A stretch of 64,000 nucleotides of DNA from Candidatus Latescibacterota bacterium (GCA_965208105.1 OZ242318.1:2496001-2560000), one strand, 5' to 3'. Counted from the first letter of the stretch, positions 2,627-54,653 are shown. Numbers and translations are program-made. The notes: generated from the sequence alone by a model not told the origin.

Positions 2627-2939
2627 AAGTATAGGTAAAATGAGGCACCTTTTTGGCCCTCTTGTCAATGCGCCGAACACACCCAAGGGGCAGGGTAAGC
2701 TTGCTGATGATCGTTTGCAGGTCGTTTGTCAGGGCTCGCAGTACAGTTTGGTTGTCTGTGGGCCCCTAGTGCGCTGTTAATGAGTCGGCATTGAGTTTTA
2801 GACCTTGGCCAGTGATACCACGAAGAAAGAAAAATTACAAGTCTGAATACTTAACAGCGCACTAGCGGGTCCAATCCGGTACTCGATGAGGCCGTTCAGG
2901 ACGCACTTCTCCCTACGGCTCACGGCGCCGGGAGCGAAT
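2627..2939 (-). mobile_element. ISCR/IS91-like element copy 1 (ori end plus 3' UTR, interrupted by a MITE)
   Basis: Begins AAGTATAGGTAAAATGAGGCACCTTTTTGG on +; near-identical to the other copies. Confidence 0.9.
2769..2862. mobile_element. 94-bp IS630-family MITE
   Basis: 12-bp TIR GTGCGCTGTTAA/TTAACAGCGCAC, TA on both sides; both halves resemble the ends of the IS630 at 11551-12706. Confidence 0.9.
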
Positions 2940-3285
2940 GGAGGGGAGGGCAGGCCGCGGCTGGAGGCTGGATTCCGAGCCCTTCATCATAATGGCTCGC
3001 AAGGGATGCGGTGGACATGGCCTTCACGGCTACACCAGTCGCCACTTCGACGGAGCTCAGTGCTACACTTTTACAAACGGTCAGTTCCGATTCTGCAGCT
3101 ACTCACCGAGTATCTACGAGACGGAAATGCCGGAATGGTTCGACGAACCCACCGAGGTTCAGAAAGCGGTTCTGGAATCACCTTACGTGCATAGCAGACC
3201 CCTGATAGAGGATGACGTCGAAACACTGGTCCGTCCCGGTGCGGAACCCAAGGACCACATTCCTCGCAAGCGCCACGAATTCTAG
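2940..3285 (+). pseudogene. PhyH-family dioxygenase fragment, 5'-truncated and internally deleted
   Basis: GWRLDSEPFIIM...GHGLHG...FTNGQFR joins directly to YSP...; the DGG...PGSH core seen in the paralogue at 39425 is missing. Confidence 0.6.
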
Positions 3286-3356
3286 GTAGGGAAATCCTCG
3301 CCCCGACGCGGGTTGACTCGCTGCTTTATTCTCCGCACCGCCACGAATTCTTGCCG

Positions 3357-5384
3357 CTAATAGACGCGTATATGATTGCCTCTCATGCCCGTAAACGCGT
3401 CCACCAGCAGCCAGAAACCCGCCGCCACGAACTGGCCCAGGATAATCCCTATAAAAAACGGCTTGGTTCGTTCGTAGAGCGAAGGTCCGCCGTACTTCAA
3501 CACCGCTAGCTTGATCAGCCACGCGCACAGCGTCGACATCCAGGTGGCGGTCAAGACCCACGAGGTACTGATGGCGAAGCCGACGGGATGGAAAGGCCAC
3601 CAGGCAAAGGTGTGGCGCGCGATCATCAAGCCGGCCATGACCGCTGCCCCGATTCCTGACCAGATCCACCCATATACGTTGGCCTCCGGGGCGCCACCGA
3701 TCGCGACTTCGGCGTAGCGGGGCGCCGACCGCGAGTAGACCTGATAGTATCTGCCATTGAGGTTGAGACCTCCGTGCTTGTAGCCCAGATAGATCCAAAA
3801 CCAGGTACCAGCCGCTATGGCAATCGCCGAAGCCGCCATGATGGCGATCGCCAAAGCCCGTCGACGCCGGGTGATCTCCGACCCCAGTCGTAGCGCGTTG
3901 GCCATAGGAGCAGTCATGAAGGTGAGAAAACCGCCGGCCCAAACCAGCGTGTAGCCCGCTGCCACTAAACCCTGCATGCCCAGTGCCGTCGCGCCGACGC
4001 TCGACATCACGAAGGTGGCCGGCCCCATGGAGGGCGTGATGGTGGGTATGCCGGTTTCGGCGATGACCCTCGCCAGTCCGATCATGATAACCAGGATGGC
4101 GAAGATGAAAATCGGCGCGATCCATGCTGGGAAACCCGTCTGCCACAACCAGACGAAGACGACAGCCGCGCCGCCCAGGAAGCAGAGTACGGCGCCCCGA
4201 TACGACATGATTTCCCGCGAGTCGTCCACCGGTGCATCGCTGTTCCAGGCCTTGCGAAAAACATCCTTGAGGTGGGACCGTGCGGTCCAGAGACCAAAGA
4301 GCACCATGACTATCAGGGCGCCCATCATCTGGTGGCCGAAGATGGAGCCGCTAACGGAGGCCCACCAGGGACCCATGCTTTGGTACGGATCTATTCCCAC
4401 GGTTGCGAAGAGACCTTGCTGGGCGAGCTTGAGGAGGTAGAAGAACCAGATGCTGAAGGCGACGCCGGTATTGATGAAGTAGGCAAAACCCAACATGAGA
4501 AAGTTGATACGAAGTTGGACCTCGACCTGTTCCCGAAAAATCATGAACTCGGCTTGTCCCATGAAGGGGGGAATCCAGGGGACATAGTTGTGCAGAATGT
4601 TGGTGCTGTTCATCAAAAAGGAGAAGAGGAAGCCGGCCCACACGACCGGATTCTTGAAGAACGGTTTGATGATCGAATTGGGCCTGCCATTGTCCTGTAC
4701 CATGGCCAGGGGCACCTGGGCCATGGGAAACGCCAGGCGCTCGTTATCCACCCACTGTCGCCGCAGGATCACCAAAGCGCTCAGCAACATGAGGTGGTAG
4801 GCAATAATGAGGACAAACCAACGCGACAGAACCGGCAGCCACAGGTGCCAGGGAATCCGGTCGACGTCCCCGCCGTAGTACAAATCGCTGACCGCCCGGT
4901 CATCGCTGAGCGCGAGCCAGTCCGGCCGTATCAGCTCGACGAGCTCCGTCCAGTTGTTTTCGGGGCTGGCGTAGAAGCTACTCCCCGTAACCCCGACCAC
5001 GAGCCTCCCCGAAACGCCGCGGTTGGGAATGTGCGTCGCCACCGCCATCATGCTGAAAATCAGTACGAGCTCCCCGGGGCGCAGATGCCAGTTTCGCTTC
5101 AGCAAGGTGAGCACCACCTGCACCGTCAGCACAAGGACGAAAAAGAGGATGAATGCGGCCGGCGTGCAGGAGCTGAGCCCGATGCGCGACCCATGGATGA
5201 CGTTGATGGTGTAAGGCAGGATCAGCGCGACACTCAGGGCTGAGAATGCGCCTATAACCAGGCTGCGCAGGGTGATCGCCCACCGGTCTGAACGGTGTGA
5301 TGAACCAGGAGTGCTCACGGATCTAGATGGGCCGCCCGAACTCGGTGAAGCCAACCAGCGCGCGCAAGAAGAATTCCAGGACAT
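3357..5384 (-). CDS. DUF6785/DUF6784-type multi-pass membrane protein (putative transporter); start uncertain
   Basis: Many TM segments; RRQWVDNERLAFPMAQVP and WWPFHPVGF motifs. Confidence 0.75.
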   Translation of the reverse strand: MSWNSSCARWLASPSSGGPSRSVSTPGSSHRSDRWAITLRSLVIGAFSALSVALILPYTINVIHGSRIGLSSCTPAAFILFFVLVLTVQVVLTLLKRNWHLRPGELVLIFSMMAVATHIPNRGVSGRLVVGVTGSSFYASPENNWTELVELIRPDWLALSDDRAVSDLYYGGDVDRIPWHLWLPVLSRWFVLIIAYHLMLLSALVILRRQWVDNERLAFPMAQVPLAMVQDNGRPNSIIKPFFKNPVVWAGFLFSFLMNSTNILHNYVPWIPPFMGQAEFMIFREQVEVQLRINFLMLGFAYFINTGVAFSIWFFYLLKLAQQGLFATVGIDPYQSMGPWWASVSGSIFGHQMMGALIVMVLFGLWTARSHLKDVFRKAWNSDAPVDDSREIMSYRGAVLCFLGGAAVVFVWLWQTGFPAWIAPIFIFAILVIMIGLARVIAETGIPTITPSMGPATFVMSSVGATALGMQGLVAAGYTLVWAGGFLTFMTAPMANALRLGSEITRRRRALAIAIMAASAIAIAAGTWFWIYLGYKHGGLNLNGRYYQVYSRSAPRYAEVAIGGAPEANVYGWIWSGIGAAVMAGLMIARHTFAWWPFHPVGFAISTSWVLTATWMSTLCAWLIKLAVLKYGGPSLYERTKPFFIGIILGQFVAAGFWLLVDAFTGMRGNHIRVY

Positions 5385-5714
5385 TCACGTTCCGGTGGTC
5401 CCTGAAACCGCCTTCGTACTGCAGCTCGTCCCTGGCGACCACAACGATGGCCCATAGGTCGTAGCCGAAGTAGTGCGTGGAGTTGGTAAGGGTAAGGAAA
5501 AGCGTACTGCGCTCGAAACTCCTTCGATCGGAGGTGTCGTCGCGCATCCGGTACGGGAGCGGACCAAATCCCTGAACACCTGCCTGCAGCAGCGTCGTCG
5601 TCGGATTCCATGAACTCGTCGGCGATGTCGTCCACCGTCTGCCAGTACAAATAGTCGTTGCGCATACCGTTGAGATGGTGTCGCCAGAACATAATATCCG
5701 TATGGAAAAATTCC
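5315..5714 (-). pseudogene. Hypothetical gene fragment abutting copy 2
   Basis: Open frame runs continuously from the repeat; family not recognised. Confidence 0.35.
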
Positions 5715-6024
5715 AGGTAAAATGAGGCACCTTTTTGGCCCTCTTGTCAAGGCGCCGAACACACCCAAGGGGCAGGGTAAGCTTGCAGATGATCGTTTGC
5801 AGGTCGTTGGGCAGGGATCGCAGTAGGGTTGGGTTGTCTGTGGGCCCGTAGCGGGTCCCATCCGACCACGGCGTTTTGAGCGCAAAGCAAAGCCGCTGCG
5901 AAGCGAGGAGGCGCAGGCGCCCTGAAGCCAGGGGCGGCCTGGCCACGTAGCGGCACAAGCGTTCGAGTCCCCGCCGGTCCCGGCCCGCGATCCGCCTAGC
6001 CGCATGCAGCGAAAAGCCGCGCGA
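5715..6024 (-). mobile_element. ISCR-like copy 2 (ori end lacks 6 nt; 3' UTR fused to the catalytic Tyr region of the transposase)
   Basis: Repeat followed by GFSLHAARRIAGRDRRGLERLCRYVARPPLA...KTPWSDGT. Confidence 0.9.
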
Positions 6025-6088
6025 AGGCCAAGTCCGGTAACTCCGCTGAAGCGGCCCGGCGACGCACCCGCTCTTCGTGACTGGCCGC

Positions 6089-7552
6089 TCAGTCCGCCTG
6101 TCCCGGGAACGAGGTCTCCTCACCGACCTGAAAGCCGAACAGGGTAGCCCGGTGGAGGTGGAACCGCACCTTCATCACGTGCCCCACCCTTCCCCCGGCG
6201 TCGCTGGTCTGGCCGGGGATTCCGCGCAGCTCCGGTCTCTCCCACCACAGGCGCAGGCGGCCGTCGGCTGCCGCGATCGATCCTGAGGCCGCGCGGTCCC
6301 AACCGGGCACCACGCTGCCGAACGGGTCCAGTATCTCCGCGCGCACGCTTCCCCCGGGGTCGACGTCGGCGACGGCCTGCACCCCCGTCTGCCCGTAGTT
6401 GCAGACCCACCGGGTCTCCACCACGCCGTCGTGATCCGCCCGCAGACCGCACAGGGCCTGCAGCGGCAGTCGCGCCAGGCCGGTGCGGCGGGTGGCGCCG
6501 ACGGTCTTGGGGTTCACCACCGGCGGCTTGGGCCCGCGCTTCAAGCGGTGGTGTCGGTCCACTCCGTTGTAGTAGACGAAGAGCTCCTCTCCCACGGGCA
6601 GCAGCCGCACGGGACAGACCTGCCCGCTGTCGAAGGAGCCTTCGGGACCGCGGGGAATCCACTCCGCCCGCGGCAGGGCGCGGTGAAAACTCCGTCCGTC
6701 CCGGGAGTACACCAGCTCGGTAGTCATGGGAGAGTCCTCCGGGTGGTCGTGAAAGACCCAGAGGGCGCCGACGTGGAAGGTGCCGACGACGGCCGTCGAC
6801 AGGGAGTAGAACTCGGTGAACTCGTCGTCCCCGGAGTCCGGGGTGAGGAGCATCTCCGGGGGGGTCCAGCGCAGAAAGTCGCCGCTTGTGCCGCGGCCGA
6901 CGAAGCGCCGCTTCGGCTGGGTGCGCGGTCGCAGGAACGCCACCCAGCTCCCGCTGTCCCGGTCCCGGTAGGGCTGCAGGCAGTTGGCGTCCGTGATCTC
7001 CTCGAACCCCATCACCAGGATCGGCTCCTCCGGCCATTCCAGGCCGTCACGGGAGAAGCTCACCGTCACCCCGGTGCCACCCCCTTCCGGGAGGCCGGCC
7101 GCGGCCCGGGTCGCGTGCTGGTAGCCCAGGGCTTTGTACCGCCGCCGCGGATCCGGGTCGTCCGGATCTTCGACGATGTTATGGAAGACCGAATCCCCGG
7201 CATCGACTTCCCGGATGATGTTGTTCTCCAGGCTCCCGGCAAAGGACAGCCGCCGGAGAGAAGGCCGTTCCCAGGTCAAGCCGTCACCGCTTTCCGCATA
7301 GCAGAGAAAGTGGCGCTCCGGCCCGTCGCCCTCGCCGGCGGGGCGGTCCGCGCCGCCGATGGAAGCGCGGTACCAGAGTCTGAAGCGACCGGAGGCCCGG
7401 TCGCGGAGCACCGCGTGGAAGGCGGAGCTGCCGGCGGTCTCCCACGGCATCTGCGGTTCCAGAATCGGGTCCGGCTCCTTCTTCGGGGAGCCGAGCACCC
7501 TGCGGACGCCGGCAGTTCGGTCGATGTCGTCGTCGTCGAAGAGCAGCTTCAT
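6089..7552 (-). CDS. Glycoside hydrolase-like five-bladed beta-propeller protein
   Basis: [18 protein letters not shown] repeats, DPDPRRRYK motif. Confidence 0.7.
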
Positions 7553-7656
7553 GGGGCGAGTTTCTCGATCAGCTCGAGCGGAGAAAGGACCAGATGGGTG
7601 GTCCCGTCTGCCCATGGCTCACGGCCGGCTAATGTCTTTGCCTGCGCGCATCTGGA

Positions 7657-8199
7657 TCAACGATTCCGGGCTCGTTCGAGGACCGGTCGGTAATATTCGA
7701 GGTCCGGGACTTTCATGTCAGGGATTTTGCCAGCCTCGTCGTAGAGGCGCAGTTGGATGGCTCGTTCGAAGTATGGGTTGGCTTCAAATTCGCGCGCCTC
7801 CTCCTCTTTGAACGGGCCTCCCTGTACCTCGAGACTGAGCATCGAGGCAGGTGAAACAGTCTCCAGATACTCTGCGTCCGTTGCCACAAGATACCGCTTG
7901 GCCGCGACATGCAGGCGCATCGGTTCGATCACCTCAGGAGGGAAGTGATCGCGCAGCGCTTCGGCTCCCAACTCTTCATGAGTCGCGTCAATACCTCTTT
8001 CGGCGACATCTTCGCCAAGGTCATGTACGAAATGGCCGTAGTCATGCAAGAATGCCGCTGCAATCATCAAATCGTCGGCCCCATCACGCTCGGCAGCTAC
8101 CGCCGTCTGTAGGCTGTGAGCGACAATGGTCACCCGCTCTCCATATTCCGCCTGGGCATTCTTCCGCATGCTGTCAAAAATCTCGTCGATGATGGACAT
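7657..8199 (-). CDS. PhnZ/TmpB-like HD-domain oxygenase
   Basis: HSLQTA, AAFLHDYGH, HVAAKRYL, SLEVQGGP motifs. Confidence 0.8.
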   Translation of the reverse strand: MSIIDEIFDSMRKNAQAEYGERVTIVAHSLQTAVAAERDGADDLMIAAAFLHDYGHFVHDLGEDVAERGIDATHEELGAEALRDHFPPEVIEPMRLHVAAKRYLVATDAEYLETVSPASMLSLEVQGGPFKEEEAREFEANPYFERAIQLRLYDEAGKIPDMKVPDLEYYRPVLERARNR

Positions 8200-8209
8200 C
8201 CTGTCTCCC

Positions 8210-9316
8210 TTATTCTCTATCCAGCACAGCCAGCTTGCTTAGCAGGCTGTCAATGTCCGCATAGCAACCCTGAAAATGGCGATCGCCTGCGCTTTGATAG
8301 CCGATGCGGCCATGGAGAATTCGCTGATTGTCGAAAAGCACCCCATCGCCAGGACCCATTTTGAAAGTGACCTTGAAGCGCTCGTCTTCCAACATGCCCG
8401 CGAACGCGTGATAGGCGGCATAGAATGCCGGCATCTTCTCCGTTTCGACGTAGAACGCCTGTATTGATCGATTGTTGAAATGAATGCCAACGACCTCGCC
8501 GCGAGGGTTGGTCTGGATTATCGTCGTTTCTTGATGTAGGTCGGTGTCCTCACTACTAAAGCGGAAGGTGACCAATGTTGAGGTCAGCAGGGCAAACTGG
8601 TCCGGTGCCTCCTGACGTAACGCTTCCGCCGCGCGAAAACCATCAACCAGGGTACTGTCGCCTCCAGCAACGCAATTGCTCAACACATGCAACATCTGCA
8701 GTGTCGGAACGGGACGACGATAGGGGTTGTCGGTGTGACCGGCGAGCGGTGCGCTCGTATAGGCGAGATTATTCGGGTTGGCCACCACCTCTATGTCGAA
8801 GTAGGGACCATAATTTGTATGGCGCACGTAACCAAACAGGTCTATCACCTTGAACAGCGACTCAGATTCGACAGGAATCTCCGCTATCGTGGCAAAGCCG
8901 TAATCGCGCACATGAGCCAGCATCTCTCGTAAATAACTATCGTCCTTCGTCAATTGTGGAAGCACAAAGGGCAGCTTGGGAAACGTTGCCGCATCCCACA
9001 ACCGCTTGTGGCTGCGACGGGCCTCCATCTCTGACCGCTCATAGGCGTTGGACCGCAGCCATTCGGGGGTGAACTCCGTCACGTGCCCGTCGTTGGCCCA
9101 CTCTATTTTGACGGTTTCGCCTACAGTGACGCTGTTTGCTCTTAGATCAAGCGGGATCGACAGAGTATCAACGAGTTTCTGTCCATTGGCATGCCGGTTC
9201 TCGGGGGCGTTGTCTCTGAGCCAGATATAGTGGAAGATACTGCGATGGCCGTCTTCCCACTCAATGACAAGCTGGTTTTGTTCCGCGCTATGACCAACAA
9301 TGACGTTTTCGCTCAC
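8210..9316 (-). CDS. Gamma-butyrobetaine hydroxylase-like Fe/2OG dioxygenase (TmpA-like)
   Basis: N-terminal WLRDN domain, HTDNPYR, FDNQRILHGR. Confidence 0.8.
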   Translation of the reverse strand: MSENVIVGHSAEQNQLVIEWEDGHRSIFHYIWLRDNAPENRHANGQKLVDTLSIPLDLRANSVTVGETVKIEWANDGHVTEFTPEWLRSNAYERSEMEARRSHKRLWDAATFPKLPFVLPQLTKDDSYLREMLAHVRDYGFATIAEIPVESESLFKVIDLFGYVRHTNYGPYFDIEVVANPNNLAYTSAPLAGHTDNPYRRPVPTLQMLHVLSNCVAGGDSTLVDGFRAAEALRQEAPDQFALLTSTLVTFRFSSEDTDLHQETTIIQTNPRGEVVGIHFNNRSIQAFYVETEKMPAFYAAYHAFAGMLEDERFKVTFKMGPGDGVLFDNQRILHGRIGYQSAGDRHFQGCYADIDSLLSKLAVLDRE

Positions 9317-9631
9317 CTATAGCCTCCTCAAGTGTGCAGGTCGGTTGACCTCGCCGCTCGCGGACAGAGACACACAATGCGGCACGGCGCGCGACCCGAT
9401 CAATCAATGTCTTGTCCGACAGAGAACTCACCATTCTTGCGAAAGGTTGGACTCCCTGCCCAACTCTCCCCGTACCGCGTCCAAGGCGACGGAGTTTCCG
9501 TGTATATCAGCAATGAGCGCCAATTTCATTGTATCAACCTCGAAAAACCGATCTGGACGAACACTTCTATTCGTTTTCACGGTTTGGGGAACCGCGAAGC
9601 TGTTGCGGAAGGCTAAAGTACGTCAGCGGCT

Positions 9632-10039
9632 TCACGACTTGCTCAGATTCATCGTTGCACCATGAGCCATCTCAAAGCCATGCCGCTCGTAAAATGGGAC
9701 AGTGTCTTCTCGACAACGTAACAGAACCTGCTGGATTCCGATTTCTGTAAGACGTTCCACGAGCCGCCGCATCAGCTCCGAACCGATGCCCATACCACGT
9801 TTTGACTCCTCCACCACCACATCATCAATCAAGGCGCGATAGATTCCATCGCTAATAGCTCGTGCAAACCCAACGAGGTGGTCATCTTCCCAAACGCCCA
9901 AGATTACAGCAGTTCCTTCGAGCATCGTGTGAATTTGCTCGGAGTTTCTGTCTTTTGCCCAAGCTGTTTGCCGGAGCAGGACCTGCAATTGCTCAGGTTT
10001 GATGGACCGTTCAAAAGAATATTCCACTGCGCGGAGCAT
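9632..10039 (-). CDS. GNAT N-acetyltransferase
   Basis: LVGFARAISDG, RGMGIG, FYERHGF. Confidence 0.8.
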   Translation of the reverse strand: MLRAVEYSFERSIKPEQLQVLLRQTAWAKDRNSEQIHTMLEGTAVILGVWEDDHLVGFARAISDGIYRALIDDVVVEESKRGMGIGSELMRRLVERLTEIGIQQVLLRCREDTVPFYERHGFEMAHGATMNLSKS

Positions 10040-35272: not shown

Positions 35273-35273
35273 G

Positions 35274-44032: not shown

Positions 44033-44153
44033 ATGAAAATCGAACAGCAGCCTCAGCTTCCGAAGACCCTTCGTCCAATCGTCTGTATTGGCGGTGGTGG
44101 CATCATGCGCGATGCCCACCTGCAGGCCTACCGAAAATCAGGTTTTCCAGTAG
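44033..44153 (+). pseudogene. Gfo/Idh/MocA 5' fragment cut at the ori of copy 8
   Basis: IVCIGGGGIMRDAHLQAYRKSGFPV, then repeat. Confidence 0.65.
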
Positions 44154-44588: not shown

Positions 44589-44595
44589 AGTCTGC

Positions 44596-47124: not shown

Positions 47125-47161
47125 GGCGATGTCCTGGGAGCGAGGGCGCTGGGGCCGGGAG

Positions 47162-47459
47162 AAGTATAGGTAAAATGAGGCACCTTTTTGGCCCTCTTGT
47201 CAATGCGCCGAACACACCCAAGGGGCACAGGGTAAGCTTGCTGATGATCGTTTGCAGGTCGTTGGGCAGGGCTCGCAGTACAGTTTGGTTGTCTGTGGGC
47301 CCGTATCGGGTCCAATCCGGTACTCGATGAGGCCCTTCAGGACGCACTTCTCCCTACGGCTCTCGGCGCAGGGAGCGAATAGCGGATGAGATCAGGCGGC
47401 GAACTCGAACTGCGGCTGCGGCGGGGCCTCGGCGGAGGCACCGCCGGCAGCCCTATGCC
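47162..47459 (-). mobile_element. ISCR-like copy 9 (intact ori)
   Basis: Repeat identity through GIGLPAVPPP. Confidence 0.9.
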
Positions 47460-47634
47460 GGCACCGTAAGGTGCGGTCGCACTGTTTGAAGACGATCCGC
47501 CGGAGCCACGGGGCGAAAGCCGCCGCGCCGTAGACCTTTTCCTGCCCGGCGAAAGCCTCGACGAACGCTTCCGGGGCCGCATCCTCGGCCAGGTGGAAAT
47601 CGCCGAGCACCGCCCCGGCGTACCCCACGGCCAT
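47460..47634 (-). pseudogene. ECF sigma-70 region 2 fragment cut by copy 9
   Basis: AVGYAGAVLGDFHLAEDAA.EAF...FAPWLRRIVFKQC. Confidence 0.65.
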
Positions 47635-47740
47635 GAAGCTGTTTCGTTTGGGCGTTTCGTGGCAAAAAACGGTATGGTAGGCGCGTTTTCATTTTCCCCC
47701 AGCATCCAAGTCAACCCCGTAGCATGCGATCCATAGGCCA

Positions 47741-49246
47741 TCAGACAAACTGAATGGTGTACAGGCAGACGCTGCGCATGTCCAGACGCAGGCGCACCGG
47801 CTCACCCTGCAGGCGCGACAGGTCCGCCCCTTCCCAGGACACCTCGTTAACCCCGCTCTCCAGAACGGTGGTTGAATTCTCGAAGGTGAAGCCCTCGATC
47901 GGGGCCCCCGACTGGTCTGCCAGGGCCGCGCGCACCTCGCACTCGTCGAAATTCCTCACCTCCCTGGGAAGCGCTTCCCCTATCGCCGCATCCACATCGA
48001 TGAGCAGCTTCGAACCCTCGAAGGTCAAGGGATGGGTGGTGATCCGCGCCTGCTTCGGTCCGGCCAGCAGGCCGGCCCAGCGGTCCTCGGGCAGGGTGGC
48101 CAGGGCGATGTTCGTCTCGCAGGTATCGCTGAGCCGCGTCGGGTTTTCGGCATGGGCGCCGCTGTATCCGGTGTAGTAGATCCAGATCTGGCCGTCCTGC
48201 ACGATCGGTCCCGACGGCAGCAGGTATCCCGCGTCGTAGGTGCCGATCTCGCCGCGCCCGAGGAAGGGCACGTGGCGGTCGACCCAGTTCCAGTGGAAGC
48301 CGTCGCGGCTGCTCATCAGGAACACGTCCCACACCTGGTCGTGGGTCTTGTGGATCATCAGGAAGCCGACGTAGAACTCGCCGCAGAACCCGGCCGTGAA
48401 GTACTGGTACTGGTGATCGACCCGGTCGCCGTCGTCAGGCGCCAGCATGATCCGCGTCGGCGTCCAGTGCTCGAAGTCGTCGCTCTCGGCGTAGCCCACG
48501 GTGCGGATGTGGCGATGGTGGCCGCTGCCGTCGATCTCGTGGGTGAGTGGGTGGCCGGGGCGGAAGTAGCCGACATACTTCTGCTTCTTCGGATCCCAGC
48601 CCAGCACGGTGGAGGCGTCGGCCACGTCGGTGGGGTACTGCACCACCGCCTGGTTGTTGTAAGTCCAGTGCAGGCCGTCGGGGGAATAGGCGTTCACCAT
48701 ACCGCCGGGGGGCTGATGGCCGCCCGGACCGTGCATCTCGCCCTGCGCCTTGTAGCGGCGCTGCGGGTCCGGATCGCGGGGATCCTTGAAGACGTTGTAG
48801 TAGTTGGGTTCACCCGCGTCGCCGCCCCGGCGGAGCATGTCGACGATATTGTTCTGCCTCGAGTCTTCGAACTCGATCAACCCCAGATCGGGCTTTTGCC
48901 AGTAGAAGCCGTCGGTCGACGTGGCGTAGCACCAGGGCCGGCGGCCATCGGGGAGGGCGGATGGCAGGTACCACATCTTGAAGAGGTTCTCTTCTTCGTC
49001 GTAGAGGACCGTCTGACCTACGAGCTGCACATCTCCAGTCTTGCCGCGGCCTCTGCCCTCCTCCCAGGGCCGGTCTGCCACCATGATGGGATTGCCGGCG
49101 TGCTTGTTGGGCCGGAACATGTAGTGGGAGATGCGGCTGGCTTCGTCGATGAGCAGGTCGTCGAGGAAATGCTGCTTGCGCTTGCCGATGTCGACGATGC
49201 CGGCTGCCGGGGTGGAGGCGGGTTCTATCATGGATCCGGTTTTCAT
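47741..49246 (-). CDS. Glycoside hydrolase-like beta-propeller protein (paralogue of 21583-23070)
   Basis: Collinear, with long identical peptide stretches. Confidence 0.75.
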   Translation of the reverse strand: MKTGSMIEPASTPAAGIVDIGKRKQHFLDDLLIDEASRISHYMFRPNKHAGNPIMVADRPWEEGRGRGKTGDVQLVGQTVLYDEEENLFKMWYLPSALPDGRRPWCYATSTDGFYWQKPDLGLIEFEDSRQNNIVDMLRRGGDAGEPNYYNVFKDPRDPDPQRRYKAQGEMHGPGGHQPPGGMVNAYSPDGLHWTYNNQAVVQYPTDVADASTVLGWDPKKQKYVGYFRPGHPLTHEIDGSGHHRHIRTVGYAESDDFEHWTPTRIMLAPDDGDRVDHQYQYFTAGFCGEFYVGFLMIHKTHDQVWDVFLMSSRDGFHWNWVDRHVPFLGRGEIGTYDAGYLLPSGPIVQDGQIWIYYTGYSGAHAENPTRLSDTCETNIALATLPEDRWAGLLAGPKQARITTHPLTFEGSKLLIDVDAAIGEALPREVRNFDECEVRAALADQSGAPIEGFTFENSTTVLESGVNEVSWEGADLSRLQGEPVRLRLDMRSVCLYTIQFV

Positions 49247-49374
49247 TGGATTGGCTCCTCTGCGTGATGCCCCCTATGGCATGGACCGAAGAAGGGACGT
49301 TGTCTGTTGTCTGGGTCGTGCCGGCGCCAGCCGAAGACGCGGCCAGCCGGCGGGTGCGCAAACGGGCAATGTTC

Positions 49375-50112
49375 CTAACGGTCGAATGACTCCAACTGGT
49401 CAGGTACTAGTCGACAATGATCTCCCAGGCGCTCCCGGATGTCCTCACCCAGGGAGCCTGCGATTTCATACTGCGGCCGCGTATTCGGGCAGCTGAACCC
49501 GAGGTGAATCGCCCGTCTGGGCGACGAAGAAAAGTTCGCCCGTCCACCGTGCCAGACGTCTCCATGCAGTATGATCGCGGATCCCGCGGGACAGGTGGCA
49601 TATATCTCTCCAGGAATATCCGCCTTGGGATCTGAGACCACGTCTCGCGGCCAGGGGCCTTTGTGCGAGCCAGGAACGAGACGAGTTGCTCCGTTTTCCT
49701 TCGTCATCTCATCGATGGCCCAGACGACATTCAGATAGCCCGTGCAATTGGGGAAAAACGATCGATCGGCATGAATGGCCTGATGAGGACGGGGATCGCC
49801 CGGTATGGGATCGTGGAAATTCATCGCTTGCCAACGCACATCGCTCCCAATCTCTACTTGGGCGGATTCCAGCGCGAGTGGATCGGTGGCCAATTCCGCC
49901 AGCGAATCACCCTTGCCAATGAGGTTGCACAATCGCCGAACACCAGGCTGACTTGATCCTTCCGAGCCCGCCAGGTCACCCTCAAAGACGTACCTGTTCT
50001 CCAGCTCCTCTCGCAGTGCTTCCAGCCGTCCTTCTGTCAGCCAGCATTCCACGATCAGGTAGCCGTGCTCCAGGTAAAACTCCCATTGATGTGAGGATAT
50101 CATCTCATCCAT
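49375..50112 (-). CDS. PhyH-family dioxygenase
   Basis: IHAD, ENGATRLVPGSH, VWHGG. Confidence 0.85.
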   Translation of the reverse strand: MDEMISSHQWEFYLEHGYLIVECWLTEGRLEALREELENRYVFEGDLAGSEGSSQPGVRRLCNLIGKGDSLAELATDPLALESAQVEIGSDVRWQAMNFHDPIPGDPRPHQAIHADRSFFPNCTGYLNVVWAIDEMTKENGATRLVPGSHKGPWPRDVVSDPKADIPGEIYATCPAGSAIILHGDVWHGGRANFSSSPRRAIHLGFSCPNTRPQYEIAGSLGEDIRERLGDHCRLVPDQLESFDR

Positions 50113-50196
50113 GTGCCTGGACTTCAGCCAATCCGGCGACTCGGGAAACGCGTCGAGGCGGAGCGGTGCTGGCAAATCCTCATCTTGAATGGATTC

Positions 50197-50684
50197 CTAA
50201 AGCAGGCTGTCCAATACTTCCGCATAGAGCATTTCTGCTCGAACGACGCATTTTTCAGGGAGTGGACCGGTCGTGCCACCACATTTTTCGCGTAATCTGG
50301 TAAAACCTTCTATCTCATAAGCCGCGGGTCGAAAGTTGTGTTCTGGTGGTACCGGTTGCCAGAATGCTTTCATCATGCGACTAGCAATTCGCGTATTTTC
50401 TTCGTCATCGAGGTACAGGCCCAGTGGCAGACCAGGACGGGCACGTTCGAGCATGAGCGTGCCCGATTCTTCATCGTAGTCGAGTAATTGAACGGCGCTA
50501 TTTCCATCACAAAGTTGCAGCGCATGGCATTCATTTTGTTCATTCTCCAATCTTTGAACGGGCGAGTTAATTTTGAGAATTACTTCCTGGCCGTCGGCGC
50601 GCCTTGCAGGTGCAATGTAGCTATAAGACATTTCGACATGTTCTTCGGTCATAGGTGCTTCCATGCGAAGTTCCCAGCGTTTCG
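50197..50684 (-). pseudogene. APH(6)/hydroxyurea-resistance kinase family fragment, truncated at both ends
   Basis: VILKI, ECHAL...GNSAVQLL, LMLERARPG; ends before the HGD motif and starts at the ori of copy 10. Confidence 0.65.
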
Positions 50685-51204
50685 AAGTATAGGTAAAATG
50701 AGGCACCTTTTTGGCCCTCTTGTCAATGCGCCGAACACACCCAAGGGGCACAGGGTAAGCTTGCTGATGATCGTTTGCAGATCGTTTTACAGGGCTCGCA
50801 GTAGGGTTGGATAGCCTGTGGGCCCGTAGCGGGTCCAATCCCGTACTCGATGAGGCCCTTCAGGACGCACTTCTCCCTACGGCTCTCGGCGCAGGGAGCG
50901 AATCGCGGATGAGATCAGGCGGCGAACTCGAACTGCGGCTGCGGCGGGGGCCTCGGCGGCAGCCCTACCCCCTCCAGATAGGTCCGGATCGGTCAGGGCG
51001 GCGACGATCCTCAGGCGCCCGCCACAGGTCGCGCCTGCGCTGAGGTCGGAGGAAAACACCCGCGCCAGCAGGGCCGCCCACCCCAGGCGATGGGTGCAGG
51101 ACGGAGCGCTCGTATCGCCGTCCGCCGCCGGCTCGGCAACCGGCTTGGCCGGCACGATGCGGCCGCGGTCGCGGGCACGGGGGGCCAGGACCCCGTGGTA
51201 GCGC
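50685..51204 (-). mobile_element. ISCR-like copy 10 (intact ori, C-terminal transposase with small deletions)
   Basis: Repeat; RYHGVLAPRARDR... Confidence 0.9.
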
Positions 51205-52117
51205 GGGCACTGGCATCTGCTCCGGCGAAGGGGGCATGTTACCCGAAGAGCAGGCGGAGAACAGTCGTTACTTTTATGAACTCGCCTCTGCATGCTTCGG
51301 CTATTCGTGGGATAAGCTGCATCTGGTTCAGGCGTTCCACTTCAAGGGTGGGCAGGGTGCGAAGACAGGCACCGGCGGCCACCTTCCCGGTGCAAAGGTG
51401 CAAGAAAAGATTGCTGAGGTTCGTGGTCTCGTTGCAGGGCAGCCGGCGATTTCTCCTGCACGCTTCCCAGACTGGCACACCTTGGACGACTTCAAAAACT
51501 TTGCCGAAGAAGTCCGCAAGGAAACCGATGGCATCCCGATTGGCTTTAAGTTATCTGCGCAACATATTGAGGAGGATATCGAAGCCGCAATCCAAATTGG
51601 GGCGGATTATATCATTCTTGACGGTCGGGGCGGCGCCACCGGTGCAGCACCGCTCATCTTTCGTGATAACATTTCGGTCCCAACGATGCCAGCGATTGCA
51701 CGAGCGAGGAAGTACCTTGATGAAACAGGCAATGGTGATATAACCCTGATCGCGACGGGCGGATTAAGATTGCCAGCGGACTTTGCTAAGGCACTCGCGC
51801 TTGGCGCAGATGGTGTTGCCATTGCGAACTCAGCGCTGCAAGCAATTGGCTGCGTGGGTATGCGTGCCTGCCATACGAACAGTTGCCCGGTCGGAATTGC
51901 CACGCAAAAAGAGTATCTCCGTGCCCGGCTCATTGTTCATCAAGCCGCCCGGCGGCTCGACCGATTCCTCGGAGCAGCGGTTGAATTGATGCAGGTAATG
52001 GCGCGTGCCTGTGGGCATACCCACCTGAATCAATTTTGCATTGGTGATCTCACAACGTGGAAGCGGGAGATTGCATATCTGACCGGGGTTAAGTACGCTG
52101 GGGTTGTTCCTCTATAA
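51205..52117 (+). pseudogene. FMN-binding glutamate synthase family, 5'-truncated by copy 10
   Basis: SGEGG, GQGAKTGTGGHLPG, CxxxxxCxxxxCPVGIATQ. Confidence 0.8.
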
Positions 52118-52124
52118 GGAAGTG

Positions 52125-52334
52125 CTAGGGCGTGTTGATATTTATGTAACACGTGCCCATAATTCGCCAATAAGTATCCAATCGTAGGGGCGAGGTTTCC
52201 TCGCCCAATCTCGATTTCATTGAGGATTCTCGCCTTGCGGAACAGGTTGGGCAACCCAACCCCTACGGGAATTGACCTAATGTAGGGGCAACCCTTGTGG
52301 TTGCCCAAAATACTACTTTATCAACAAAACCTAG
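52125..52334. mobile_element. MITE-like element containing GTAG REP palindromes
   Basis: Imperfect IR CTAGGGCGTGTTGATA/TATCAACAAAACCTAG around REP-like hairpins at 52184-52206, 52245-52266 (inverted) and 52282-52306. Confidence 0.6.
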
Positions 52335-52395
52335 GTAAACGTAGAAAACGCAGATCTGCGTTCCCTATAAGGTAAAAGTTGAATAGGAGGCAACT

Positions 52396-53154
52396 ATGCC
52401 CGACGAATTGATGACCACCTTTGAAAAACTCTGGGTTGCCCTGCGCGCTGCGTGGTGCGACAATCACGACCTCAATGGCGCATTGGCTTTCAGCCATGAC
52501 CGCGCAGCGATGGACTTCTTTCATCGCATTGTGCAGGTGAGCGTGGACGACGCCCAAGTAGACAGGATGATTGACGATGCGATTCGCCTGTTTCAAGAGC
52601 AAAAATACGATTGCATGTTCACCCTTTCGCCGCTAGACCGTCCCACTGATCTTGGCGAGCGGTTGGAGAGGCGCGGTTTCACAGAGGGTATGTTGGCATC
52701 GGCGATGGTCTATGATCCGCCCACGACACCGCCCCCTGTCCAAACTGTCGCAGAAATCGATGTCTCACCCGATGCGGAATATGACCTTTGGGCGGAGGTC
52801 ATGTGTCGTGGATTCGGTCATGACCAAACGATGGGAGAGGTCGGACGCGATGTGCTGATCGTGCCCGAAGTGCGCCGCTATCTAGCGCGTGTGGACGGTG
52901 CGGCGGCGGGCACAACGCTGGTCTACTCACAATTCGGTATGGGCTACGTTGATCATGTCGCAACACTACCAGAACATCGCCGCAAAGGGATTGCCTCTGC
53001 CATGGTTGCACGAGCGGTTGCGGATTCACAGGCGATGGGCAACCGCTGGACGACGCTGGAGACGACAACGGGCAGCAACGCCGAGCAGATATACCAGCGA
53101 CAAGGCTTCCGCATTGCCTATCATCGAAGGCGCTACATCATGCCTCATGGGTAA
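52396..53154 (+). CDS. GNAT N-acetyltransferase
   Basis: VATLPEHRRKGIAS, IYQRQGF; AGGAGG RBS. Confidence 0.85.
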   Translation: MPDELMTTFEKLWVALRAAWCDNHDLNGALAFSHDRAAMDFFHRIVQVSVDDAQVDRMIDDAIRLFQEQKYDCMFTLSPLDRPTDLGERLERRGFTEGMLASAMVYDPPTTPPPVQTVAEIDVSPDAEYDLWAEVMCRGFGHDQTMGEVGRDVLIVPEVRRYLARVDGAAAGTTLVYSQFGMGYVDHVATLPEHRRKGIASAMVARAVADSQAMGNRWTTLETTTGSNAEQIYQRQGFRIAYHRRRYIMPHG

Positions 53155-53222
53155 GGGTAAGGTAGAATCCTTAGCAAAGAAGGTCTATCAAGCAATATTT
53201 CGACAAAAAAGGAGTTCATAAC

Positions 53223-53919
53223 ATGGCACTGCAAGCGTGGATACGCATCGGTCAACCCCTTGAGCCGGTGATGGACGATTACGAACGGATCTTTGATGCT
53301 TGGGAAGCCGGTGGAATCAAAGGCTTTGTTTTTGGTCGCACACTTTTTGCGGATACGCAGGGTCAATTTACTATTCCCGCTTTCCCTTCCAACCCGCAAG
53401 CCTATCGCAATCGCGGGTTAGAACCGAATGTCCGAGACACAGAAACCGATTCCGCCAAAGAGAGAATGCTCCATGCGATGCTTGATAACGCCAAGTCACG
53501 CGGTTGGGAGATTTTCATTTTTGCCCCCGGCAGCGGGGCAACGGGTGCGAAATCACTTCCACTAAAGGAAGATCCCTACGGTGCAGTTGCTATGGCAGCA
53601 GTTTGGGATGAGACATTCGGCAGCTTCCCACAAGTCGATGGTGGTATCATGGATGGTTGGACAGAGTCCGCTTATGAACTGGTATGGCATCACGGCAATG
53701 CCGTATTTGCGGATATACCTGAATCGACCAAAGCCCAAGCTGCTGTCAGAGGGTACGATCCAGATAGGCTTGAACGCGGCAGGCGACATCTCCATGAGCG
53801 TTTTCGTAGTTTAACCCCCGCTGAAGTCCGCTATTATGGCACCTACGGCGTACTGTCGGAGATGAATCTCTTTGATATCAACGAGGCTGCAGTTTACTGG
53901 CTGCGTTGGCGACGGGAGG
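53223..53919 (+). pseudogene. Hypothetical protein, 3'-truncated by copy 11
   Basis: AGGAG RBS; the stop codon is supplied by the repeat. Confidence 0.6.
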
Positions 53920-54653
53920 GATGAGGCCCTTCAGGACGCACTTCTCCCTACGGCTCTCGGCGCAGGGAGCGAATCGCGGATGAGATCAGGCGGCGAACTC
54001 GAACTGCGGCTGCGGCGGGGCCCTCGGCGGAGGCACCGCCGGCAGCCCTACCCCCTCCAGATAGGTCCGGATCGAGGCCGGATCGGTCAGGGCGGCGACG
54101 ATCCTCAGGCGCCCGCCACAGGTCGCGCATGCGCTGAGGTCGGAGGAAAACACCCGCGCCAGCAGGGCCGCCCACCCCAGGCGGTGGGTGCAGGGCGGAG
54201 CGCTCGTATCGCCGTCCGCCGCCGGCTCGGCAACCGGCTTGGCCGGCACGATGCGGCCGCGGTCGCGGGCACGGGGGGCCAGGACCCCGTGGTAGCGCAG
54301 GAGATGGAGCCGGGGCGGGGGGACCAGAGCCGCCAGCACGGGCTCCTCGGCGGCGAGCGGATCGGCTTGAGTGTCGTCGAGCAGGCCGTGTCGGCTACAC
54401 AGGCGGATGATGCGGCGCGCACTCGTCTCCACGATCTGCCGCACCGCTTGGTCCGACAACGGCGGGGCCGCTACGAAAACCGGAGCTTCATCCCCATCGG
54501 CGTAGACCCCGTCGAGCATGAGCACGTGTACGTGGGGATTGAGGTTCAACGAGGAACCGAATCTTTGGACGAAGGTTACCGAGCCCCAACGTGCGCGGTC
54601 ATGACCCATGGCCTGCGCCTGACGTCGATACCAGCGACCCACCACGCGGAGAA
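53920..54653 (-). mobile_element. ISCR-like copy 11 (no ori; longest transposase piece, with HUH motif and in-frame deletion of the Tyr region)
   Basis: QRFGSSLNLNPHVHVLMLDGVY ... LAALVPPPRLHLLRYHG ... FEFAA*. Confidence 0.92.

What the first reader, a model, noticed from the sequence alone, without database searches (positions are those of the whole stretch)
2627..54653. 52-kb co-oriented array of ISCR/IS91 rolling-circle element remnants interleaved with captured genes: candidate Helitron/integron-like gene-capture locus
Seen: twelve pieces of one element start at 2627, 5715, 13412, 15454, 25077, 29527, 35091, 38769, 44154, 47162, 50685 and 53920, all on the minus strand. They are separated by about 2.5-11.5 kb of unrelated genes. 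Eight end at exactly the same sequence (minus ...CATTTTACCTATACTT), about 230 bp past the transposase stop, while the other ends vary. Neighbouring genes are often cut at the junctions (VOC, two Gfo/Idh/MocA, enolase, sigma factor, APH, glutamate synthase). No intact transposase, TIR or TSD is present. Established: IS91/ISCR HUH transposases start at a fixed oriIS containing CCTAT, make no TSD, and mobilise adjacent DNA by reading through terIS. Inference: the locus grew by repeated ori-anchored capture with the transposase acting in trans, or the repeat acts as a recombination landing pad. Either way it forms a polarised cargo library. I know of ISCR arrays only as a few copies around resistance genes, not a dozen decayed copies with metabolic cargo.
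Basis: partly seen in the sequence, partly recalled or inferred. Interest (0 to 1): 0.92.

Follow-up and report, generated by a model that had tools for sequence, protein, structure and literature searches.

The report
Co-oriented ISCR-like remnant array with gene modules
A sponge-symbiont chromosome holds a hypervariable stretch where a dozen same-direction stubs of a rolling-circle (ISCR/IS91-type) mobile element separate blocks of accessory genes, and a sister species shows these blocks being gained, lost and exchanged.

Summary
All 12 pieces lie at the stated coordinates on the minus strand. They derive from one 1763-bp ISCR-like IS91-family element with a sharp oriIS-type end (...CATTTTACCTATACTT|) 227 bp past the transposase stop.

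The array is larger than reported, spanning window -20956..55258 (76 kb). It is one of three strictly co-oriented clusters in a 4.85-Mb Candidatus Latescibacterota genome that has no intact transposase.

A congeneric genome (G001) carries arrays between the same flanks at two loci. One is an intact element exactly where the window has a stub (35091). Orthologous copies differ by internal deletions, some with short junction overlaps, so many "variable ends" are in-situ decay rather than capture.

Three large indels are units [cargo + stub + ori] sitting between an ori end and its former flank. In the second array block order is shuffled with polarity kept. Shared blocks are 95-99% identical, against about 84-88% for the flanks.

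Best reading (about 0.55): ori-anchored rolling-circle activity, plus homologous recombination among co-oriented ori-proximal repeats, plus deletion. A true HUH-driven, integron-like cassette system is not excluded (about 0.15). This is a new variant of a known kind.

The parts
2627..2959 (-). Element stub. The ori end is at 2627. Bases 2627-2767 are element positions 1623-1763 and 2862-2959 are positions 1527-1624.
   Evidence: blastn against the reference element; exact 16-mer end.
5709..6026 (-). Element stub with a degenerate ori tip. Bases 5715-5864 are element positions 1608-1757. They join bases 5855-6026 (positions 971-1142) with a 10-bp overlap. Its ori flank equals the flank of G001 ori@1753423.
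13411..13604 (-). 5' piece of the element (positions 49-239, i.e. upstream UTR plus transposase aa 1-45). No ori end.
15454..15851 (-). Element stub. The ori end has 1 mismatch. Bases 15454-15770 are element positions 1448-1763 and 15775-15851 are positions 1130-1206.
25077..25538 (-). Element piece, positions 1173-1647, with the ori tip missing. It reads in frame with a Gfo/Idh/MocA N-terminal domain (ORF 25151-26062).
29527..29838 (-). Element stub with an exact ori end. Positions 1638-1763 join positions 744-936 with a 9-bp overlap. The orthologous G001 copy is contiguous over positions 744-1763.
35013..35052 (-). Ori-type end of a divergent subfamily ('C-type', ...TTCTTCCTATACTT|). It lies 62 bp downstream of the next stub and is also present in G001.
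35091..35261 (-). Element stub with an exact ori end. Positions 1677-1763 join positions 474-559. It is the ortholog of the intact 1763-bp element of G001, with the same ori flank.
38769..39043 (-). Ori-anchored contiguous fragment, element positions 1492-1763.
   Evidence: Contigs from 4 runs reach into its tip from the cargo side.
44154..44574 (-). Ori-anchored contiguous fragment, element positions 1346-1763.
47162..47455 (-). Ori-anchored contiguous fragment, element positions 1472-1763. An 842-aa gene (47124-44596) starts 37 bp downstream of its end.
50685..51207 (-). Ori-anchored contiguous fragment, element positions 1218-1763. It is flanked by an APH_6_hur fragment on the ori side and an N-terminally cut glutamate-synthase domain on the inner side.
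53920..54653 (-). Rightmost element remnant, positions 1182-1601 plus 530-857. The ori tip is missing.
1..55258 (.). The in-window part of the hypervariable region (the whole region is window -20956..55258). Accessory modules include PhyH dioxygenases, a sulfatase, DUF4838, a serpin, an ankyrin protein, TauD, GNATs, MatE and an IS630-type insertion.
   Evidence: Boundaries come from synteny with G001.
55270..56121 (-). PhyH-family gene at the conserved right boundary. In G001 its 3' end is duplicated twice inside the array: a 256-bp piece at the left boundary and a 421-bp piece upstream of the intact element.

Best explanation
The locus is a chromosomal accretion zone of an ISCR-like (IS91-family, HUH rolling-circle) element in a sponge-associated Candidatus Latescibacterota genome.

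Step 1, inferred from the family's known behaviour plus signatures seen here. Transposition starts at the fixed oriIS end and often ends early or late. This yields ori-anchored partial copies and copies that drag upstream DNA with them.

Step 2, shown as a pattern, with the mechanism inferred. Because every product carries the ori-proximal segment, that segment is the common homology. Homologous recombination between co-oriented copies, or with circular or incoming DNA carrying a copy, adds, removes and reshuffles units of the form [cargo + stub + ori]. This keeps all copies in one orientation and keeps them clustered.

Step 3, shown. Copies then decay in place by internal deletions, several of which show short overlaps at the junction. 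In the window genome no transposase gene survives, and activity would need a transposase supplied in trans.

Step 4, shown. Modules are exchanged between species more recently than the flanking chromosome diverged.
For: Family assignment: Pfam Y2_Tnp on fragments. Full-length relatives of 476 aa carry PF14319 and PF04986. The best NCBIfam hit is ISCR clade Ia at 354 bits.

Sharp common end with unrelated flanks: 28 ends in three clusters, and every end within a cluster lies on one strand (4/4, 13/13, 11/11).

Ori-anchored gradient of coverage along the element: in the window array, 11-12 copies cover the last 100 bp, 7 cover position 1500, 2 cover position 1100 and 0-1 cover the 5' end. In G001 the corresponding figures are 17, 11, 5 and 2.

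Orthology of the array: G001 has an array between the same flanks. It has an intact 1763-bp element where the window has the 35091 stub, with identical ori flanks.

Decay in place: in 4 of 4 orthologous copy pairs the window genome's copy retains less of the element. Overlaps at the three window-genome internal-deletion junctions I read are 10, 9 and 4 bp.

Unit-wise gain and loss: 3 of 3 large indels in the collinear part of the array are [cargo + stub + ori] units lying between an ori end and its former flank.

Second array pair: the flanks are orthologous, G001 has 31 ori ends all on the + strand, the order of shared blocks is shuffled, and orientation is kept in all but one block.

Cross-array sharing: a cargo gene is 92% identical between different arrays, with the same polarity relative to the ori ends.

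Recent exchange: shared interior blocks are 95-99% identical. The flanks are 87.8% (32 kb) and 84.2% (33 kb) identical, with identity rising towards the array on the left side.

Read-through capture signature: in G001, 421 bp of the boundary PhyH 3' end plus the ter region are duplicated at 98% identity upstream of the intact copy.

Experimental precedent, from passages read: IS801 gives ori-anchored fragments of 229, 360 and 679 nt in 26% of events and captures 290-1431 nt of upstream DNA (PMC3189936). In ISCR1 the variable region lies on the oriIS side (PMC6218425).

Assembly support: contigs from 4 public runs join cargo to the ori tips on both sides.
Against: - Recombination versus transposase-mediated integration at the ori junction was not resolved. 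Both give the same end structures.
- Insertion versus deletion could not be polarised, because only two genomes were compared.
- The sites that suggest a chimeric G001 copy number only about 4, and gene conversion among copies blurs them.
- Three sequence subfamilies (A, B, C) sit co-oriented in one array, which homologous recombination explains poorly.
- One cargo block is preceded by a C-type ori ending exactly at |CTTGAATG in G001, but by a B-type ori plus 39 bp in the window genome. That is a newly made junction, not a crossover.
- No consensus tetranucleotide was seen at the truncated inner ends, unlike the IS801 miniature fragments.
- No excision or circle joints were seen, but only contigs were available.
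Confidence: 0.55

Rival explanations
1. Rolling-circle cassette system. The ori nick site acts both as initiation and termination site (start at one ori, stop at the next co-oriented ori, release a module as a circle) and as the integration site. A transposase supplied in trans would then move modules site-specifically between ori junctions. This would be an HUH analogue of an integron.
For: - The gain/loss units lie exactly between an ori end and its former flank, in 3 of 3 cases.
- Module order is shuffled while polarity is kept.
- A related cargo gene (92% identical) occurs in different arrays with the same polarity.
- Three subfamilies are co-oriented within one array.
- One cargo block is preceded by a C-type ori in G001 and by a B-type ori plus 39 bp in the window genome, and the C-type end abuts it exactly at |CTTG.
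- Several modules are compact. The gene start lies 27-100 bp after an ori end, and the stop lies 12-63 bp before the next stub.
- Recalled, not from any call here: rolling-circle plasmids and phages with two direct origins initiate at one and terminate at the other.
Against: - In 4 of 5 compared junctions the shared cargo starts 15-44 nt from the ori end, or at an orthologous junction, rather than exactly at it.
- The ori-proximal part of the G001 copy resembles the window copy next to the shared flank. This is what a crossover predicts, not insertion at the nick.
- No ori-to-ori joints appear in 4 runs, though these are contigs only.
- No intact transposase exists in this genome.
- According to the 2018 ISCR1 paper (PMC6218425, passages read), no ISCR element had been shown experimentally to transpose.
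Confidence: 0.15
2. Plain graveyard. Independent full or partial insertions accumulated in a dispensable region. The genes between them are resident rather than mobilised. The common orientation comes from a strand bias of single-strand insertion relative to replication.
For: - One-ended transposition gives short ori-anchored fragments (PMC3189936, passages read).
- Clusters 2 and 3 lie on opposite sides of the cumulative GC-skew minimum and have opposite orientations.
- Accessory regions tolerate insertions.
Against: - Cluster 1 has the same orientation as cluster 3, yet lies in a region of clearly negative skew, on the same skew arm as cluster 2. Local skews are otherwise near zero.
- The cargo differs wholesale between congeneric genomes, in units that include the stubs. 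It is shuffled, shared between arrays, and more similar than the flanks.
- The boundary gene's 3' end is duplicated inside the G001 array.
Confidence: 0.15
3. Ori tips persist because they are domesticated as outward promoters for the downstream gene, like the POUT promoters of ISCR1. On this reading the array is shaped mainly by selection for expression.
For: - In the window genome, 24 of 28 ori ends are followed by a co-oriented gene, against a background of 0.49-0.75. Twelve of these genes start within 140 bp, several with SD-like sites.
- A TTGAC motif is conserved in all three subfamilies.
- ISCR1's oriIS region carries functional outward promoters (PMC6218425, passages read).
Against: - The polarity is not reproduced in G001: 13 of 19 and 21 of 31, against backgrounds of 0.60 and 0.70.
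- The sigma-70 scan finds no promoter in the tips; 4 sites were found against 4.0 expected.
- The tip is no more conserved than the rest of the UTR, about 97% throughout.
- Gene calls came from a crude ORF and GC3 filter.
Confidence: 0.1
4. Assembly artefact: repeats collapsed or mis-joined in a metagenome-assembled genome.
For: The genome is a MAG with 8% estimated contamination. Short-read contigs break at the repeats.
Against: - An independent congeneric assembly shares several junctions, with blocks 97-99% identical and identical ori flanks.
- Contigs of up to 4 runs (2-4 per segment) run from inside one stub, through the cargo, about 28 nt into the next stub: 35146-38798, 39014-42510, 43301-44182, 45597-47189 and 49218-50713.
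- The repeats are short (90-530 bp) and diverged (87-99% identity).
Confidence: 0.03

Closest known systems
ISCR elements (for example ISCR1 in complex class 1 integrons)
   Same: - The transposase is nearest to an ISCR clade model.
- The oriIS region lies about 230 bp downstream of the gene, compared with 232 bp in ISCR1 (PMC6218425).
- Variable genes lie on the oriIS side.
- Copies that lack terIS are common.
- Arrays are thought to grow by recombination of circles (this last point is recalled).
   Different: - Here there are 13 to 31 co-oriented ori ends per array over 60-150 kb of chromosome.
- The cargo is metabolic and symbiosis-type, not resistance genes.
- There are three element subfamilies.
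- Most copies are reduced to stubs.
- The arrays sit at conserved chromosomal sites in a whole bacterial family, with matches in 20 of 24 genomes.
- The NCBIfam score is far below the curated cut-off.
IS801/IS91 one-ended transposition (Pseudomonas syringae, E. coli)
   Same: Fixed ori end with a variable other end. Short ori-anchored fragments and capture of upstream DNA (PMC3189936). The same kind of upstream-capture signature appears in G001.
   Different: - No tetranucleotide consensus at the inner ends here.
- Many inner ends arose by later deletion.
- Dense polarised arrays were not described in the passages I read. Those authors ascribed most genomic IS801 fragments to reorganisation.
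Chromosomal integrons (cassette arrays)
   Same: A polarised array of gene modules separated by a repeated site. Cassette-like gain, loss and reshuffling. Content differs between close relatives.
   Different: - No IntI-type tyrosine recombinase lies in or beside any array. The nearest is a core gene 23 kb away.
- The repeats are transposon ends, not attC sites.
- Modules are 2-14 kb and often contain several genes and gene fragments.
Helitrons (eukaryotic rolling-circle transposons)
   Same: HUH rolling-circle logic and gene-fragment capture by missed termination. Many non-autonomous copies.
   Different: The transposase has no helicase domain; only PF14319 and PF04986 match. Helitrons are dispersed rather than arranged in co-oriented arrays.

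Membership tests
IS91/ISCR family (HUH rolling-circle insertion sequences) | Transposase with a Y2_Tnp catalytic domain and an N-terminal zinc-binding domain | tested here: met
   PF04986 matches window fragments. There is one PF14319 fragment in the genome. Full-length relatives that are 86-92% identical to the fragments carry both domains. An H-V-H motif and a conserved Tyr are visible in P0001; naming these motifs is recalled.
IS91/ISCR family (HUH rolling-circle insertion sequences) | Score above the curated family cut-offs (NCBIfam ISCR clade Ia; IS91 equivalog) | tested here: not met
   354 bits against a cut-off of 925, and 104 bits against a cut-off of 125. It is therefore a related but distinct lineage. 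The closest transposases outside Latescibacterota records are at most 71% identical, mostly 36-45%.
IS91/ISCR family (HUH rolling-circle insertion sequences) | Two different ends, with a conserved ori end downstream of the gene and no terminal inverted repeats | tested here: met
   The sharp ori end ...CCTATACTT| is shared by all copies. A distinct ter end |AATCTTCACACTCC lies about 105 bp upstream of the ATG in 8 of 9 5'-containing copies. Inverted repeats were not specifically searched for.
IS91/ISCR family (HUH rolling-circle insertion sequences) | No target-site duplication; insertion next to a specific tetranucleotide | tested here: inconclusive
   The flanks after the ori end are heterogeneous. 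One new junction abuts CTTG. TSDs were not searched for systematically. The target tetranucleotide of IS91 is recalled.
IS91/ISCR family (HUH rolling-circle insertion sequences) | Rolling-circle, one-ended transposition with capture of upstream DNA | not testable with these tools
   Only signatures are available: the ori-anchored coverage gradient and the duplicated boundary segment upstream of the intact copy.
Integron | IntI tyrosine recombinase next to the array | tested here: not met
   PF00589 gives 9 matches in the genome and none inside the three arrays. The nearest is at window 78270-78782, within conserved flank.
Integron | attC recombination sites bounding single promoterless cassettes | not tested
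   No attC model was run. The repeats between modules are transposon ends. Rfam found nothing in the window at gathering thresholds.
Helitron | Rep fused to a Pif1-type helicase | tested here: not met
   The full-length 476-aa transposase carries only PF14319 and PF04986.

The most novel reading that the evidence does not exclude
The arrays are a working gene-cassette system run by an ISCR-type HUH transposase. Co-oriented ori nick sites delimit modules. Initiation at one ori and termination at the next releases a module as a circle, and any ori junction can receive it. This would be a rolling-circle counterpart of the integron that shuffles and exchanges accessory genes among sponge symbionts.
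Probability: 0.15. Interest if true: 0.9.

Novelty: new variant of a known kind. Interest (0 to 1): 0.6.

Why it matters
ISCR elements are known almost only as one or a few copies beside resistance genes, and their mobility has hardly been tested. According to the 2018 ISCR1 paper (PMC6218425, passages read), no ISCR element had then been shown experimentally to transpose.

Here a whole family of uncultured sponge symbionts carries long, strictly polarised arrays of ISCR-like ends at conserved chromosomal sites. The modules include eukaryote-like proteins (serpin, ankyrin), sulfatases and dioxygenases. They turn over, reshuffle and pass between species.

This is a natural system for asking how rolling-circle elements build accessory-gene regions. 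It could show whether an ori end alone can serve as a recombination site. It could also show how symbiont gene repertoires are exchanged inside a host.

Even under the conservative reading, the locus documents a large-scale role for IS91-family ends as recombination scaffolds.

Tried and rejected
**Replication-strand bias as the cause of co-orientation.** The cumulative GC skew and local skews do not fit all three clusters. Cluster 1 contradicts the idea. The result is inconclusive and the idea was not adopted.

**Outward promoter in the ori tip.** The polarity of the first downstream gene was significant in the window genome (24 of 28; binomial tail 0.008 at a background of 0.63). It was not reproduced in G001 (13 of 19 and 21 of 31). 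The sigma-70 scan found no site in the tips. This is kept only as a weak rival.

**Hairpin at the ori.** DNA folds of the A-type tip are no better than shuffled sequence (z = +0.85 to +1.4). The C-type remnant has a small hairpin (z = -1.7).

**Extra conservation of the tip.** None was found.

**Termination tetranucleotide at inner ends.** None is evident.

**PhyH as special cargo.** The family has 130 matches genome-wide, so its presence in the array is unremarkable.

**tRNA, tmRNA or Rfam features as an integration site.** None in the window.

**Empty site in more distant relatives.** Flank synteny is already lost in G008. The rhodanese gene was not found with this query in G010, G014 or G016.

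**Read evidence.** Only Logan contigs were served. They break at the repeats, so no record spans a stub. One 5350-base skipping joint (37945 to 43296, one run, side 30) joins PhyH paralogues and is not ori-to-ori. No excision joints were seen. Because contigs drop rare variants, this says nothing either way.

**Exact-site search for the 39-bp linker in G001.** The fuzzy-regex script timed out. The BLAST-short replacement did not find the linker in the sampled G001 regions.

**Literature.** Four searches found no description of large co-oriented ISCR/IS91 remnant arrays or of such arrays in Latescibacterota. The term sets were: IS91 / rolling-circle / one-ended transposition / truncated; IS91 / sponge / symbiont / transposase; Latescibacter / sponge / transposase / long-read; and IS91 / ISCR / same orientation / remnants / hotspot / gene capture. 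This covers only the held library. For three papers I read passages through 'find': PMC3189936, PMC6218425 and PMC13393415. All other papers were seen only as search listings. Supplementary files were not opened. The supplementary tables of PMC3189936 and PMC6218425 might bear on fragment and downstream-gene counts.

Full report
**What is in the window.** The longest minus-strand ORFs across them match Pfam Y2_Tnp (PF04986). One is fused to a Gfo/Idh/MocA N-terminal domain.

A search for longer relatives returned 476-aa proteins with Zn_Tnp_IS91 plus Y2_Tnp that are 86-92% identical to the fragments. The best one, P0001, scores highest against NCBIfam 'ISCR element clade Ia' (354 bits, far below that model's strict cut-off). 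It scores second against the IS91 equivalog (104 bits; cut-off 125). So the repeat is an ISCR-like member of the IS91 family, but of a lineage of its own. The nearest transposases outside records titled Candidatus Latescibacterota are mostly 36-45% identical.

**The reference element.** An intact copy in the congeneric genome G001 (locus L001) defines a 1763-bp element.
- The ter end is |AATCTTCACACTCC, about 105 bp upstream of the ATG. It is shared by 8 of 9 copies that contain a 5' part.
- The transposase occupies element positions 106-1536.
- The sharp ori end ...CATTTTACCTATACTT| lies 227 bp after the stop.

**Map of the window pieces in element coordinates.**
- Contiguous ori-anchored fragments: 38769-39043 (1492-1763), 44154-44574 (1346-1763), 47162-47455 (1472-1763), 50685-51207 (1218-1763).
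- 15454-15770 (1448-1763) plus a small 1130-1206 piece.
- Stubs in which an internal segment is joined to the ori-proximal UTR: 5715-6026 (971-1142 + 1608-1757), 29527-29838 (744-936 + 1638-1763), 35091-35261 (474-559 + 1677-1763), and 2627-2959.
- Pieces without the ori tip: 13411-13604 (49-239), 25077-25538 (1173-1647), 53920-54653 (530-857 + 1182-1601).
- A divergent 'C-type' ori end at 35013.

**Genome-wide picture.** The window is G000:C1:2496001-2560000 of a single 4.85-Mb contig.

The 16-mer end with at most 2 mismatches occurs 23 times, and 21 of these are in three clusters. With at most 3 mismatches, 28 of 39 hits fall in the clusters:
- 1.00-1.04 Mb: 4 ends, all on the + strand.
- 2.488-2.547 Mb: 13 ends, all on the - strand. 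This is the window array, which starts 7.5 kb left of the window.
- 4.304-4.377 Mb: 11 ends, all on the + strand.

At least three sequence subfamilies of the end (A, B, C) are present, and they are mixed within cluster 3. There is no intact transposase anywhere in G000.

Coverage along the element falls steadily from the ori end. In the window array it goes from 11-12 copies at the tip, to 7 at position 1500, to 2 at position 1100, to 0-1 at the 5' end. In G001 the figures are 17, 11, 5 and 2.

**Relatives.** P0001 fragments occur in 23 of 41 genomes searched, including G000, and in 20 of 24 genomes of the same family. In the complete genomes they lie in strand-pure clusters. For example, in G001 the listed matches at 1.753-1.805 Mb are all '-' and those at 3.623-3.753 Mb are all '+'. 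Similar runs occur in G016. Record titles name Candidatus Latescibacterota. The cargo stretch 35300-44100 is held in sponge, coral and marine metagenome runs from 9 studies.

**The orthologous array.** G001 has an array between the same flanks.
- The left flank ends with a rhodanese gene at window -20964 (G001 1733278).
- The right flank starts with a PhyH gene at window 55270-56121 (G001 1805146).
- The variable region is therefore window -20956..55258 (76 kb) in G000 and 71.6 kb in G001.

Inside the region, some blocks are collinear and 97-99% identical: window -8688..-1146, 2953-5603 and 29646-35179. The rest is unrelated: window 5604-29645 and 35262-55258, and G001 1761783-1805145.

The intact G001 element lies exactly where the window has the 35091 stub, with identical ori flanks. 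In all four orthologous copy pairs the G000 copy retains less of the element:
- 474-559 + 1677-1763 against 1-1763.
- 744-936 + 1638-1763 against 744-1763.
- 1007-1142 + 1608-1763 against 1254-1763.
- 1716-1763 against 1545-1763 + 334-412.

The three G000 internal-deletion junctions show query overlaps of 10, 9 and 4 bp. These inner ends therefore arose by deletion in place, not at insertion.

**Units of change.** Three large indels in the collinear part have the same form. One genome has [ori end | flank X]. The other has [ori end | cargo ... stub-ori | flank X].
- The flank of G001 ori@1753423 equals that of window ori@5715. The 24 kb between window 29526 and 5715 is extra in G000.
- The flank of G001 ori@1748683 equals that of ori@-1302. 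A 3.9-kb unit ending at ori@2627 is extra in G000.
- The flank of G001 ori@1736111 equals that of ori@-7523. A 4.4-kb stretch with three further copies is extra in G001.

This structure is what results from recombination between two co-oriented copies (loss), from recombination of a circle carrying a copy (gain), or from integration at the ori nick.

In a five-row alignment, the ori-proximal part of the G001 copy shares about 4 variant sites with the window copy next to flank X (5715). It does not share them with the copy that shares its upstream part (29527). That is what a crossover predicts. One row of that alignment was mis-specified by me and is ignored. The evidence is thin, because orthologous copies also differ at such sites, which suggests gene conversion among copies.

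**Second array pair.** G000 cluster 3 is orthologous to a G001 array at 3.611-3.760 Mb. The flanks are 82.6% and 86-89% identical. G001 has 31 ori ends there, all on the + strand. Interior blocks are mostly 95-99% identical, but their order is permuted, and orientation is kept for all but one block.

A cargo gene of the window array (21590-23381) is 92% identical to one in that other G001 array, with the same polarity relative to the ori ends.

At nucleotide level, one cargo block begins directly at a C-type ori end in G001 (...CCTATACAT|CTTGAATG...). In G000 the same block is preceded by 39 unrelated bases and a B-type ori. In three other cases the shared cargo starts 15-44 nt from the ori end, and one junction is orthologous. 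From memory, CTTG is a canonical IS91 target next to the ori end. This is a single case.

**Horizontal exchange.** The flanking chromosome is 87.8% identical over 32 kb on the left, rising from 80% to 95% towards the array. It is 84.2% identical over 33 kb on the right. Shared interior blocks at 95-99% must therefore have moved between the two species after they diverged.

Most of window 35262-55258 has no close match in 25 relatives. Short pieces of 93-96% identity occur in another genus, G008.

**Capture signature.** In G001 the segment upstream of the intact copy duplicates the right boundary of the array at 98% identity. This segment comprises the ter region, a spacer and 421 bp of the PhyH 3' end. 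A further 256-bp PhyH 3' piece sits at the left boundary, next to the left flank.

This is what read-through past terIS gives, and what rescue of such a product by recombination through the captured piece would give. The ISCR1 model of this kind is recalled. IS801 was shown experimentally to capture 290-1431 nt of upstream DNA and to produce ori-anchored fragments in 26% of events (PMC3189936, passages read).

**Assembly.** Contigs of up to four public runs (2-4 per segment) run from inside one stub, through the cargo, and about 28 nt into the next ori tip. This holds for five cargo segments. Several junctions are also shared with the independent G001 assembly. Misassembly is unlikely, but no long read was available.

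**Ideas tested and weakened.**
- Orientation does not follow GC skew consistently.
- In G000, the first gene after an ori end is co-oriented in 24 of 28 cases, and 12 start within 140 bp, several with SD-like sites. In G001 the proportions (13 of 19 and 21 of 31) equal background. A sigma-70 scan finds nothing in the tips. The ISCR1-like outward-promoter idea (PMC6218425) therefore remains weak.
- The tip is not more conserved than the rest of the UTR.
- The A-type tip has no significant hairpin.
- No tyrosine recombinase lies in or beside the arrays.
- The window has no tRNA or Rfam feature.

**Verdict.** The family assignment, the ori anchoring, the polarity and the cargo turnover are supported.

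The mechanism most consistent with the evidence has three parts: rolling-circle activity from a fixed ori (inferred from the family), recombination among co-oriented ori-proximal repeats that adds, removes and shuffles modules (pattern shown, enzyme not shown), and deletional decay (shown).

A site-specific, transposase-run cassette system is not excluded and would be the exciting outcome.

In the searches I ran, I found no description of such arrays.

Noticed in passing
window 10283-12955: An IS630-type element (HTH_32 at 11638-12174, DDE_3 at 12189-12698, + strand) splits an FGGY sugar-kinase gene. FGGY_N profile positions 2-83 are at 12695-12955 and the rest of the gene is at 10283-11548. 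A 98% identical copy lies in the other G001 array.
   Followed up: partly
window 51200-53920: A low-GC (53%) module. It carries an N-terminally cut glutamate-synthase domain, a GNAT gene and a cluster of short GC-rich hairpin repeats at about 52140-52330. These repeats attract 250-740x summed contig depth and many variable joints in all four metagenome runs. It looks like a REP-like repeat common in the community, and the module looks foreign.
   Followed up: partly
G000 whole genome: PhyH (phytanoyl-CoA dioxygenase) domains give 130 matches in 4.85 Mb. None is found in the 14 control genomes.
   Followed up: no
window 21583-23070 and 47741-49246: Two paralogous genes of about 500 aa without any Pfam domain (72-74% DNA identity). 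Relatives occur in the other G001 array (92% and 73-83%) and in G004 and G008. This is a recurrent array passenger of unknown function.
   Followed up: partly
G000 2436980-2475043 against G001 1700001-1733278: Identity of the left flank rises stepwise from 80% to 95% towards the array boundary. This is as expected for a recombination tract that entered through the array.
   Followed up: no
window 13893-15365 and 23358-24716: Eukaryote-like proteins are among the cargo: a serpin of 490 aa, which starts 89 bp after ori@15454, and an ankyrin-repeat protein of 452 aa.
   Followed up: no
window -19801..-8703 (G000 2476199-2487297): About 12 kb specific to G000 at the left end of the variable region. 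It holds a thioredoxin-like gene, a 938-aa multihaem cytochrome-like protein, two roughly 1000-aa proteins without domains, and two HTH_Tnp_1 (IS3-type) fragments. It contains no ori ends.
   Followed up: partly
window 29837-30267 and -4859..-4428: A 432-bp segment is present twice in G000 and twice in G001 (98% identity). In both genomes one copy lies directly against the truncated inner end (element position 744) of a stub.
   Followed up: no
window 56223-58391 and 44596-47124: Proteins ending in a FlgD_ig-type C-terminal domain. The last ~100 aa of the 722-aa protein hit 13-22 further proteins in each of five related genomes, which suggests a secretion-sorting domain.
   Followed up: no
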